Virus record (IMG/VR): IMGVR_UViG_2529293138_000011 | Location: 1 to 40,429 of that record | Reading direction: 5' to 3' (one strand) | DNA length: 40,429 nt | Source of the DNA: a virus | Taxonomy: Duplodnaviria > Heunggongvirae > Uroviricota > Caudoviricetes | In this document: one piece after another, positions 1,240-3,185 of the stretch | Numbering within the stretch: the stretch's first letter is position 1 | Layout of the letters: every line of letters starts with the position of its first letter | The notes under the pieces: generated by a model | Seen by the model: the letters and a program-made list of their open reading frames with translations, nothing else | Told to the model about the DNA's origin: nothing | The model's database searches: none | Made by a program: the position numbers and the translations under genes

Positions 1240-1986
1240 TTAAAGAATAATTCTTTCAACCTTCCAAGTTGCAGATCTACTTCCTGAAATTCCAACTCCA
1301 TTTGAATCTTTGAGAAGAATTCTAAATGATGTTTCTGTTACCAAATCATACGTTGCATTTATTGCTGCGCCATCTCCTATCGATATTGAGATAAAATCAG
1401 GCACAACTCCAAGTCCGTGAGTTATTATTTGTCCATTTGAATAAACCCCAGTTCCTATTTTAGTCGTTGCATACCCGGCATTGTTTGCAAGGACAACATT
1501 AACCGAATTTGCTCCTAATTTAGCAATCTTCCTATCAGATGAAATCTCTGTAGATTGTATTGCATTATTTGAAATAACTGCATCTTTTATAGCCCTGAAA
1601 TCTCCAGGTGTTCCTGATACAGCATTAACAAGTATTGCATACTGCATACTTCTATCACTTCTTTTATTGCCGAAAGCATTACCGCAAATTGTTGTCCCGG
1701 TAAATCCAGATGCTCCCGTGTTATCAAGAAGAATTCCGCACCTATATGTATTTGATGTATCAGAAGGCAAACCTATACCTCTTATGGAATTATTGGATAC
1801 TATATTATTATCTGGCTTGACATTTGCATTATTGCAGTAAATGCGAATTCCAACATCACAAAATGCATCTAATACATTATCAGATATAACATTACCCGCT
1901 CCCCACACATCAATACCCATAAACGAATCAGCACCATCTCCAAAAAATTTATTTTGAGTAACTATTGTTCCGCTACCCCTAATCAA
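1240..1986 (-). CDS. Tailspike protein, C-terminal segment (beta-helix receptor-binding part); the reading frame stays open upstream to about 2067
   Basis: 248-aa ORF rich in G/N/S/T/I repeats typical of a right-handed beta-helix. Track start is a TTG. Translating the same frame upstream gives [33 protein letters not shown]..., overlapping the end of the upstream tailspike ORF in another frame. AT-rich. Confidence 0.7.
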   Translation of the reverse strand: MIRGSGTIVTQNKFFGDGADSFMGIDVWGAGNVISDNVLDAFCDVGIRIYCNNANVKPDNNIVSNNSIRGIGLPSDTSNTYRCGILLDNTGASGFTGTTICGNAFGNKRSDRSMQYAILVNAVSGTPGDFRAIKDAVISNNAIQSTEISSDRKIAKLGANSVNVVLANNAGYATTKIGTGVYSNGQIITHGLGVVPDFISISIGDGAAINATYDLVTETSFRILLKDSNGVGISGSRSATWKVERIIL

Positions 1987-2045
1987 TATAGCAGGCCTTG
2001 GAATGCTTGAAGTCTTTTTGCTATCATTGTAGCCATGATTATCGT

Positions 2046-3185
2046 TTATATGAGATTCCCCCCCGCACTATCTATGCAGCAATTACACGAATCTATTATA
2101 TTTTTATTTATCCTTACATAGACAGAATCGTGTTTTATACCTGTAATAAAATTTGATATGGAATTTGATACAAAACTAGTTGCCTTACATGGCAATGAAA
2201 CGCCATGTATAGCGTCCTTAGACGCTCCTATGGCAACAAAATGTATCCCTGTAACAATTGCTGGGTTCTCATTAGATGATGTGTCACCTATGGTAATAGC
2301 AAAAGAATTCTCATCTTCAGGACCATCAATTGTTAATATCGTTTGTGGCGTATATCCTTGAGATATTTGCGATCCATTTCCTGAACCAAACCCTCTCATA
2401 CTTACAAAAGATGGGATTCTTAGTTTTTCTGTTACTCTACAGTTGCCACCCCAAAAAAATTCCTCTTTAACATGGGCAGCGGCCAGCATGATTGGAATTG
2501 TATCATCTTTAACTCCATCAAGCGTCGCTCCATAATTTCTAAGGTCATTGGTTTCATACCCATTTAAATAACCAATACATCTCCATCCTGTTGAGGTATA
2601 TCTGGCAAATTTATCATCTGGGGGAACAGTAAAAGGAGGAACTGTCATTTCTCCTCCAGTTATTTCATTTTCATATACCCAAAACAACCCATCATAATCT
2701 TTGATTGCGCATCGGTTGTCACGAATGATATTTTGCTTGTCATAGTTCCCACAATATGAAAAACCAGTTGCTAATTTCTGTAAATTTGTTCCTGATGCTG
2801 AGTTTATTAATGATGCGCCATTTTCGCTAGTTAATACATTATTTAGAGGGTCAGGATCATACTTCAGCACATTAGGAAAATAGAACTGCTGCGCACCGTA
2901 CGCATCATAAACAGCCATAGAATGGCCTTGCACGGTAACGAATTTGGCAATCTGTCCGTTATATACCGGATATCCAGCAGCGTTAATGATGATTGGTTGC
3001 GAAACAGGAACATGAGAGCCATCTTCGTTCTCCACATAAACCTGAATCTGGTTTTCAGGATTTACCGGATCAGTGTCAATTTTTCCGATATAAATTTTTC
3101 CATTGGCTACTGCTTTAAAAGAACGCGCCATAGTGAAGAGTTGCGATGGCATACTCACTACAACATTGGCTGTAATGTCTGTCAT
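2046..3185 (-). CDS. Tailspike protein, N-terminal segment with P22 gp9-type head-binding domain
   Basis: First ~110 aa ([112 protein letters not shown]) match the P22 tailspike head-binding domain as I recall it. The rest is a divergent AT-rich domain. Stop at 2046 lies 12 nt 3' of a C7/G7 run. Confidence 0.85.
2058..2064 (-). repeat. Homopolymeric tract (7 C on + strand, 7 G on coding strand) at the tailspike frame break
   Basis: Sequence tgagattccc ccccgcacta. The two tailspike ORFs overlap here in different frames and both read GG across the tract. Confidence 0.8.

What the first reader, a model, noticed from the sequence alone, without database searches (positions are those of the whole stretch)
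1240..2850. Chimeric tailspike: conserved P22-type head-binding domain fused to a divergent, AT-rich receptor-binding beta-helix
The first ~110 aa match the P22 gp9 head-binding domain as I recall it. Beyond roughly residue 115 the sequence is unrelated by eye and the DNA becomes markedly AT-rich compared with the flanking structural genes, suggesting a horizontally swapped receptor-binding module. Its glycan specificity is unknown and could define the host serotype range.
Basis: partly seen in the sequence, partly recalled or inferred. Interest (0 to 1): 0.5.

Follow-up and report, generated by a model that had tools for sequence, protein, structure and literature searches.

The report
Frameshifted modular P22-type phage tailspike
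This is the host-recognition spike gene of a P22-like prophage of E. coli O8, built from a standard particle-docking head and a rare, horizontally acquired sugar-binding beta-helix, and in this copy it is broken in two by the loss of one G from a run of eight.

Summary

A G7 run (2058-2064) splits it into 379-aa and 248-aa ORFs. Sibling prophages carry G8 and an intact 648-aa protein. One of them is identical to the window over 8.2 kb except for that single G. A third lineage has G9. G7 recurs in at least five separate assemblies, so it is probably real and not only a 454 artefact.

The module belongs to a tiny family (12 clusters among 1.84 billion representatives) that also occurs on other phage anchors, such as Justusliebigvirus KKE7M. 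Every typed carrier is E. coli O8 and also carries one rare galF-gnd polysaccharide cluster. The receptor is probably that polysaccharide or the O8 mannan. It is a new member of a known kind, of modest interest.

The parts
2850..3185 (-). Head-binding (particle-docking) domain of the tailspike, codons 1-112, ending at the YDPD hinge
   Evidence: Pfam PF09008 at E 1.3e-66. PDB sequence hits to Sf6 gp14 and P22 gp9 N-termini. 93-96% nucleotide identity to HK620, CUS-3 and about 1,150 E. coli genomes, ending at this boundary.
1240..2849 (-). AT-rich receptor-binding module (codons ~113-648 of the repaired gene): N-terminal subdomain, right-handed beta-helix, C-terminal beta-sandwich
2046..3185 (-). 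ORF-A, 379 aa: head-binding domain plus the first part of the beta-helix, ending ...[11 protein letters not shown] after the frameshift
   Evidence: Deposited as EGX04329.1 in E. coli STEC_MHI813.
2058..2064 (-). G7 homopolymer (C7 on the + strand), the frameshift site. Intact alleles have G8 encoding A-G-G-E
   Evidence: The alignment with L001 and L002 shows a single missing G. It is the longest G/C run in the window. G7, G8 and G9 are seen across loci. The tract lies between the invariant residues D372 and E377.
1240..2067 (-). ORF-B reading frame (276 open codons; callable ORF 1986..1240, 248 aa from TTG), carrying the rest of the beta-helix and the C-terminal domain
   Evidence: Deposited as hypothetical proteins EGX04328.1, EFG1567552.1 and others.
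3250..3267 (-). Terminator-like stem-loop with a T-run between ant and the tailspike start, as annotated in HK620 and epsilon34
   Evidence: A 'terminator' feature lies under the matches in HK620 and epsilon34.
3286..4254 (-). Antirepressor Ant (context: end of the immI region, directly upstream of the tailspike as in P22)
   Evidence: Pfam P22_AR_N and P22_AR_C.
1..1158 (+). Tyrosine integrase, convergent with the tailspike. Its last ~85 nt travel with the tailspike module in other prophages
   Evidence: Pfam Phage_integrase and Arm-DNA-bind_3. Int 3' remnants lie next to the tailspike in L001 and L002. Homology to the window ends at ~1073-1098.

Best explanation
Window 3185..1240 (minus strand) is the tailspike gene of a P22-like (Lederbergvirus-type) prophage integrated at argW. 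The source lineage is E. coli STEC_MHI813, serotype O8:H19.

Shown: the gene is modular. A 112-aa P22-type head-binding domain is joined at the YDPD hinge to a ~535-aa receptor-binding module of foreign, AT-rich composition. The module belongs to a very small unnamed family that also occurs behind other phage anchor domains.

Inferred from the predicted structure and from established knowledge of P22, Sf6 and HK620 tailspikes: the full-length protein trimerises and docks on the tail hub through its N-terminus. It uses a right-handed beta-helix to bind, and probably cleave, a surface polysaccharide so that the virion can reach the outer membrane. The invariant residues D372, E377, D417 and D440 are the candidate catalytic carboxylates.

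Inferred from co-occurrence: the target is a polysaccharide of O8 strains that carry one rare rhamnose-type Wzx/Wzy cluster at galF-gnd. I lean towards that K-antigen-like polymer (about 60%) over the O8 polymannan (about 35%).

Shown: in this window the gene is inactivated by slipped-strand loss of one G from a G8 tract (G8 to G7) between codons for D372 and E377. This gives a 379-aa N-terminal fragment and a 248-aa orphan ORF.

Inferred: this copy yields tailspike-less, non-infectious particles on induction unless the tract reverts. The tract is a mutational hotspot, because G7, G8 and G9 alleles all exist.
For: Domain and boundary.

Composition.

Frameshift anatomy.

Intact 648-aa alleles: L001 and L002, and P0015, which is identical to the repaired translation.

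The frameshift is real and recent:
- G7 occurs in the window and in L003, L004, L005, L007 and L008, from separate Logan and NCBI assemblies that are 100% identical in their flanks.
- L015 has G8 and differs from the window over 8,186 nt by that one gap only.
- G9 occurs in L006, a different prophage at another chromosomal site.

The motif across the junction, [18 protein letters not shown], is nearly invariant, and D372 and E377 are invariant in 14 relatives.

Module exchange: the same module is found behind PF18668, PF03906 and Mtd_N-like N-termini and in Justusliebigvirus KKE7M. Thirty of the 41 nucleotide differences from L001 and L002 fall in the head-binding end, while the module itself is ~99.5% identical.

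Host link:
- MHI813 is O8:H19 (PMC3491183).
- Some carriers are named O8:H49.
- Both complete genomes that carry the module have the O8 wzm/wzt genes and the same galF-gnd cluster.
- That cluster is in 5 of 5,426 genomes, against 302 with O8 wzt.
- MHI813 and SRR6061346 carry the cluster too.
Against: No enzymatic or binding activity was tested. The catalytic class (hydrolase, lyase, or binding only) cannot be read from the fold.

Model confidence is only moderate, and the first ~100 residues of the module and residues ~265-310 of the full-length protein are poorly predicted.

The window protein does not itself reach any Pfam beta-helix model.

The source assembly was made with 454 Titanium, which miscounts homopolymers, and it splits another gene that an Illumina-type assembly of the same clone keeps intact. 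I could not check the platforms of the other assemblies.

The host association rests on a few lineages. The two complete genomes share identical polysaccharide loci, so they are not independent hosts. The galF-gnd cluster and the O8 cluster are physically linked, so the data cannot cleanly separate them.
Confidence: 0.75

Rival explanations
1. The G7 run is a sequencing or assembly error. The real prophage has G8 and an intact tailspike, so the two-ORF structure is an artefact.
For: The source genome was sequenced on 454 Titanium FLX (PMC3491183), which is known for homopolymer miscounts. The same 454 assembly splits a glycosyltransferase gene (192 + 163 aa in L019) that is intact (352 aa) in the SRR6061346 assembly of the same clone. 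An otherwise identical prophage has G8 (L015).
Against: G7 is also found in the separately assembled SRR5031183, SRR6061346, SRR17020611 and GCA_021089345.1. The 248-aa product is deposited under four further NCBI accessions. SRR6061346 resolves the glycosyltransferase correctly yet still shows G7.
Confidence: 0.12
2. The G tract is an adaptive, reversible ON/OFF switch (a contingency locus) for tailspike production, comparable to the hypermutable polyG tracts in receptor-binding genes of Campylobacter phages.
For: A G8 run is unexpected in this AT-rich segment (expected 0.006 runs; G>=7 in 2.8% of shuffles). It is the longest G/C run in the window. Three tract lengths (7, 8, 9) occur, arising at least twice independently. 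The precedent is Sorensen et al. 2021, Cell Rep 35:109214, cited in PMC10877375.
Against: G7 is fixed in a whole clone of 100%-identical loci and not mixed. A prophage tailspike is not expressed in the lysogen, so neutral decay at a slippery tract explains the data equally well. An OFF tailspike gives dead virions, with no obvious benefit. The KKE7M homologue encodes the same motif without a G run.
Confidence: 0.1
3. The G7 allele still yields full-length tailspike through -1 ribosomal frameshifting or transcriptional slippage on G_GGG_GGG. Such a slip would give exactly the wild-type sequence SAGGESH.
For: In ORF-A's frame the tract reads GCG GGG GGG AAT, a formal X_XXY_YYZ heptamer. A -1 slip continues as GAA TCT CAT, identical to the G8 protein.
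Against: There is no downstream stimulatory structure (z = +0.87 against shuffles). The frameshift arrangement is not conserved, because relatives are simply in frame with G8 or lack the run. The efficiency of all-G heptamers in E. coli was not looked up here.
Confidence: 0.04
4. The two ORFs are a functional split tailspike, with an anchor protein and a separately translated receptor-binding protein, as in K1-5, SP6 or CLB_P1-type systems.
For: Two-protein anchor-plus-RBD arrangements exist in other podoviruses (Pas et al. 2023, PMC10408124). ORF-B has a possible TTG start at 1986.
Against: The break falls inside the beta-helix and inside the most conserved motif, not at a domain boundary. 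All relatives are single chains. ORF-B has only a TTG start and no clear ribosome-binding site. A sibling that is identical over 8.2 kb apart from the tract is in frame.
Confidence: 0.02

Closest known systems
P22 gp9 tailspike (endorhamnosidase), with its relatives Sf6 gp14 and the HK620 tailspike
   Different: The receptor-binding part shows no detectable sequence similarity (<=16% identity in structural alignments). Its specificity is unknown, and it is AT-rich. In this window it is broken by a frameshift.
Tail spike of Escherichia phage KKE7M (Justusliebigvirus, XLQ29711.1), and MAG phage tailspikes P0002-P0009, P0025 and P0026
   Same: They carry the same receptor-binding module family, 45-48% identical over all ~535 residues including the CCID-AG-ESH motif.
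   Different: Their N-terminal anchors differ (TSP1/gp66-type PF18668; one also has a T7 tail-fibre N-terminus). They come from lytic myovirus or uncultured phage backgrounds. KKE7M has no G run at the motif.
Det7 tailspike gp208 (PDB 6f7k) and other beta-helix depolymerases (CBA120 TSP2, KP34p57, Acinetobacter APK tailspikes)
   Different: Sequence identity is only 8-16%. The catalytic residues and substrates are not transferable.
Predicted O8-specific RBP subtype of Pas et al. 2023 (G7C RBP1/gp66, MK-13 RBP1, fGh-Ecl02 RBP1)
   Same: It is associated with E. coli serogroup O8 by the same kind of host-correlation argument.
   Different: It is not homologous. tblastn of this module against 50,697 phage records finds only KKE7M and none of those phages. 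If this module targets O8 at all, it is a second, unrelated solution.
Hypermutable polyG tracts in receptor-binding genes of Campylobacter Fletchervirus phages (Sorensen et al. 2021)
   Same: A G homopolymer inside a receptor-binding protein ORF has length variants that move the gene in and out of frame.
   Different: Here there is a single tract in an E. coli temperate phage. No within-population switching or benefit has been shown, and neutral decay in a lysogen fits as well.
CUS-3 endosialidase tailspike (K1-specific P22-like prophage)
   Same: It is a P22-type head-binding domain fused to a module that targets a capsule-type polymer and not the O antigen. This is the precedent for the K-antigen reading.
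   Different: Its module is an unrelated endosialidase. Here the capsule versus O-antigen target is undecided.

Membership tests
P22-like (Lederbergvirus-type) tailspike | N-terminal Head_binding domain (PF09008) | tested here: met
   E 1.3e-66 against a cut-off of 24 bits (score 222 bits), aa 1-112. PDB hits to P22 and Sf6 N-termini.
P22-like (Lederbergvirus-type) tailspike | Genomic position at the end of the late or immI region, downstream of ant, in a P22-like genome | tested here: met
   The neighbours are ant, arc, mnt and gp16/gp20-like ejection proteins. The backbone matches P22, HK620 and IME10-type phages.
P22-like (Lederbergvirus-type) tailspike | C-terminal receptor-binding part folds as a right-handed parallel beta-helix | tested here: met
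P22-like (Lederbergvirus-type) tailspike | One uninterrupted ORF giving a full-length chain able to trimerise | tested here: not met
   In the window the gene is split at the G7 run. The feature is met in sibling prophages with G8.
P22-like (Lederbergvirus-type) tailspike | Polysaccharide binding and endoglycosidase (or lyase) activity | not testable with these tools
   This needs purified protein and substrate.
GH90 / P22-type endorhamnosidase module | Sequence homology of the receptor-binding part to P22 gp9 residues ~125-666 | tested here: not met
   All PDB sequence matches stop at aa ~114-117. The module alone gives no PDB hit.
Pfam PF12708 (Pect-lyase_RHGA_epim) beta-helix proteins | Match to the family HMM above the gathering score | tested here: inconclusive
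   The window protein gives no hit at E<=1. Relatives linked to it at profile E-values of 1e-59 to 1e-117, and one weaker at 9e-23, do hit, seven of the ten scanned above the cut-off. The typical start motif NYGAxxDGxxDD is present.
Phase-variable (contingency) locus | Homopolymer of at least 7-8 nt inside the ORF, with length polymorphism among near-identical strains | tested here: met
   G7, G8 and G9. The G7 and G8 loci are identical over 8.2 kb apart from the tract.
Phase-variable (contingency) locus | High-frequency reversible switching within a population, with a selectable phenotype | not testable with these tools
   Only consensus assemblies are available. G7 appears fixed in one clone.
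Programmed -1 ribosomal frameshift site | Slippery heptamer plus a downstream stimulatory structure, conserved among homologues | tested here: not met
   The heptamer G_GGG_GGG is formally present. There is no structure (z +0.87), and homologues are in frame.

The most novel reading that the evidence does not exclude
The G8 tract, placed between two invariant putative catalytic residues, is a selected hypermutable switch. It would let this family of E. coli temperate phages, or their lysogens, toggle tailspike production, for example to limit self-adsorption and superinfection or to modulate release of infectious particles. That would be an enterobacterial counterpart of the polyG-controlled receptor-binding genes of Campylobacter phages. 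In addition, the module would be the first sequenced depolymerase for a so-far uncharacterised K-type polysaccharide (or the mannan) of E. coli O8.
Probability: 0.1. Interest if true: 0.6.

Novelty: new member of a known kind. Interest (0 to 1): 0.3.

Why it matters
Tailspike modules set the host range of P22-like phages and are used as serotype-specific probes and depolymerases. This module is an uncharacterised, very rare family: 12 clusters among 1.84 billion representatives, and 2 of 5,426 complete E. coli genomes. It is tightly linked to O8 strains that carry one particular extra polysaccharide cluster, including Shiga-toxin-producing cattle isolates.

The single-G frameshift is also a practical warning. 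Automatic annotation reports two unrelated 'hypothetical' or 'head binding family' proteins. A prophage that looks complete may therefore be unable to make infectious particles.

Tried and rejected
- PHROG phrog_8280 ('colanic acid degradation' tailspike) matched aa 1-437 of the full protein. The module alone gave no PHROG hit, so the match was carried by the head-binding domain. I dropped the colanic-acid lead.
- WceF (6tgf) matched weakly over aa 7-232. This was not reproduced with the module alone.
- I tested whether the module is the 'O8 subtype' of Pas et al. 2023 (G7C gp66 and others). It is not, because there was no tblastn hit.
- The first full-length AF2 model was poor (pLDDT 58.6). 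It was replaced by a module-only model.
- I suspected that the wzy-like gene of the galF-gnd cluster was truncated in A35 and OkiPb01694 (244 aa annotated), which would have argued against that polymer as receptor. Translation shows the full 401-aa frame is intact, so I dropped this.
- Programmed frameshifting: no downstream RNA structure was found.
- Searches for the module in IMG/VR gave one distant locus. GTDB species representatives gave none.
I solved this through the listing of cluster members and P0032.
- Literature searches for an O8 endomannosidase tailspike found nothing usable.

Full report
WHAT IS THERE. The finding's coordinates (1240-2850) lie inside a gene on the minus strand that starts at 3185 and ends at 1240. 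The ORF listing gives two ORFs there and not one: 3185..2046 (379 aa, starting [17 protein letters not shown]...) and 1986..1240 (248 aa). The neighbours are a tyrosine integrase (1..1158, +), the antirepressor Ant (4254..3286, -), Arc and Mnt homologues, and P22 gp16/gp20-type ejection proteins. The rest of the window matches P22, HK620 and IME10-type phages in a mosaic way. So this is the tailspike position of a P22-like prophage. Exact-sequence look-ups identify the source lineage as E. coli STEC_MHI813 (EGX04329.1 and EGX04328.1). That strain is a bovine O8:H19 isolate sequenced with 454 Titanium (PMC3491183).

OBSERVATION CHECK. The head-binding claim is right.
- Pfam PF09008 covers aa 1-112 at E 1.3e-66.
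- The only PDB sequence matches are the N-termini of Sf6 gp14 and P22 gp9, ending at aa ~114-117. Identity is 75% to P22 and 91% to Sf6.
- At the DNA level, 35 phage records and about 1,150 E. coli genomes match only the first ~440 nt of the query, down to window ~2850, just after the YDPD motif.

The composition claim is also right. GC is 36.5% for 1240-2849, against 42.6% for the head-binding part, 47.7% for int and 47.1% overall. This is the lowest of all 1610-nt windows in the 40 kb, about 3 sd below the mean, and GC3 is 21-24%. The corrections are that the gene is on the minus strand, that the head-binding codons (3185-2850) lie outside the stated interval, and that the gene is interrupted.

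THE FRAMESHIFT. ORF-A ends ...[11 protein letters not shown]. The frame of ORF-B is open from 2067 and reads [16 protein letters not shown].... The junction is a G7 run at 2058-2064, the longest G/C homopolymer in the window.

Two complete E. coli genomes, OkiPb01694 and A35, carry the same gene at 98.5-98.9% identity. Both have G8 and an annotated intact 648-aa CDS. Inserting one G gives a protein that differs from theirs at 2 and 4 residues, and that is identical to WP_251634309.1. The motif spanning the junction, [18 protein letters not shown], is almost invariant in all relatives. D372 and E377, on either side of the tract, are invariant in a 14-sequence alignment whose members are only 26-43% identical to the first sequence. 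The continuous reading is therefore the functional one.

IS G7 REAL? The 454 origin raises the possibility of an error, and the same assembly does split a glycosyltransferase gene that another assembly of the same clone keeps intact. Against an error:
- G7 is also present in the separately assembled SRR5031183, SRR6061346, SRR17020611 and GCA_021089345.1. All are 100% identical to the window over up to 8,185 nt.
- The 248-aa product has four further NCBI accessions.
- A sibling prophage at the same argW site (GCA_018682855.1, L015) differs from the window over 8,186 nt by that single base only and is in frame.
- A different prophage at another chromosomal site (GCA_022977275.1, L006) has G9, giving a 382-aa ORF-A.

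I conclude that the tract slips, that G7 is most probably a true and recent inactivating allele fixed in one clone, and that the site is a mutational hotspot. A G8 run is unexpected in this composition (expected 0.006; G>=7 in 2.8% of shuffles). A -1 slip on G_GGG_GGG would restore exactly the wild-type sequence. However, there is no downstream RNA structure (z +0.87) and the arrangement is not conserved, so programmed frameshifting is unlikely.

THE RECEPTOR-BINDING MODULE. Scanned alone, the module has no hit in Pfam, NCBIfam, PHROGs or PDB sequences. The word-indexed search of 5.8 billion proteins finds one 90% cluster of E. coli prophage proteins (91 sequences) and a dozen others at 36-48% identity. 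The exhaustive HMMER search of 1.84 billion representatives finds only 12 proteins at E<=1e-30. Several of the more distant members match PF12708 above its cut-off. The module carries the typical helix-start motif [12 protein letters not shown].

HORIZONTAL EXCHANGE. Homology to the relatives starts exactly after YDPD. In those relatives the module follows a TSP1/gp66-type N-terminus (PF18668), in one case together with a T7 tail-fibre N-terminus, or an Mtd_N-like N-terminus. The only cultured phage that carries it is the Justusliebigvirus KKE7M, at 45.8% identity. Among the P22-like copies, 30 of the 41 nucleotide differences lie in the head-binding end, while the module is ~99.5% identical. 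The module also travels with ~85 nt of the 3' end of int into prophages integrated at other sites. Only 2 of 5,426 complete E. coli genomes have the module, against about 1,150 with the head-binding segment.

LIKELY RECEPTOR. MHI813 is O8:H19, and other carriers are named O8:H49. Both complete carrier genomes have the O8 wzm/wzt/manCB mannan cluster. At galF-gnd they also have the same rmlBDAC-wzx-acyltransferase-four-GT-wzy cluster. Their prophages sit at different sites (next to bioA and torT), so they are separate acquisitions.

O8 wzt is in 302 of 5,426 genomes, but the galF-gnd cluster is in only 5, and 2 of those 5 are the carriers. MHI813 and SRR6061346 carry that cluster as well, and accession neighbourhoods suggest the same for the O8:H49 and other carriers. 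If the target were simply O8, finding both carriers among the ~5 cluster-positive genomes out of ~302 would have a chance of about 20/90,902, or 2e-4. That is my own arithmetic and it ignores clonality.

I therefore lean towards the galF-gnd-encoded, K-antigen-like polymer as receptor, by analogy with the K1-specific CUS-3 spike. The O8 mannan is the alternative. The two loci are linked and cannot be separated here. The 'O8 subtype' of Pas et al. 2023 (G7C gp66 and others) is unrelated to this module.

VERDICT. This is an ordinary kind of object, a modular P22-type tailspike, with an uncharacterised and rare receptor-binding module. It is a new member of a known kind. Interest is modest (0.3). 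The most novel reading still open is an adaptive polyG switch, as in Campylobacter phages (reference). I give that about a 10% chance.

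Noticed in passing
window 38417-38432, 38726-38740 and 38741-40429; L004 8347-8421: The right prophage end (attR) is a 15-nt copy of the 3' end of tRNA-Arg(CCU) argW at 38726-38740. A second 16-nt argW fragment lies at 38417-38432, next to an AlpA/Xis-like ORF. The last ~1.7 kb of the window is host DNA with a LacY-family (CscB-like) sugar permease (39182-40429). argW itself and attL lie just outside the left end of the window.
   Followed up: partly
L001 8133-8216, L002 8134-8217, L006 up to ~4889; window ~1073-1158: Prophages integrated at three other chromosomal sites (next to bioA/ybhB, torT, and dacD/sbmC-like genes) keep an ~85-nt remnant of the 3' end of the window-type integrase directly after the tailspike. 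The tailspike module therefore seems to have moved together with this flank.
   Followed up: partly
L010 12628-26392, L011 1-11677, L019 6532-20294: A rare Wzx/Wzy polysaccharide cluster (rmlBDAC, flippase, acyltransferase, four glycosyltransferases, a 401-aa Wzy-like protein, then a degraded group II intron and ISAs1) sits at galF-gnd, next to the O8 mannan cluster. It occurs in 5 of 5,426 complete genomes. PGAP annotates the Wzy-like gene as only 244 aa, although the 401-aa frame is open.
   Followed up: partly
L019 11948-13005 versus L022 3554-4612: The 454 assembly of MHI813 splits a GT4 glycosyltransferase gene into 192-aa and 163-aa ORFs. The gene is one 352-aa ORF in the SRR6061346 assembly of the same clone, so this is probably a homopolymer error in the deposited draft.
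   Followed up: no
window 20240-20899 (-) and 22731-23222 (-): Two endonuclease-like genes are embedded around the lysis/late-gene part of the prophage. One is a T5orf172/MUG113 (GIY-YIG-like) protein and the other an HNH_3 + AP2 domain protein. Both look like homing-endonuclease-type insertions.
   Followed up: no
window 5050-5900: A second, smaller low-GC patch (36-39% GC at ~5400-5900) lies between the ejection-protein genes and mnt. It holds two overlapping ORFs on opposite strands (121 aa and 181 aa) with no Pfam match. This is the position where P22-like phages carry superinfection-exclusion or moron genes.
   Followed up: no
window 36527-37606 (+): An early-region ORF combines a dATP/dGTP pyrophosphohydrolase domain (PF04447) with a C-terminal DUF551 domain.
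   Followed up: no
A3 profile positions ~420-529 (full-length aa ~535-645): The C-terminal beta-sandwich of the module recurs on its own in many otherwise unrelated proteins in the exhaustive search (many hits cover only positions ~420-529). It therefore looks like a separately shuffled C-terminal domain.
   Followed up: no
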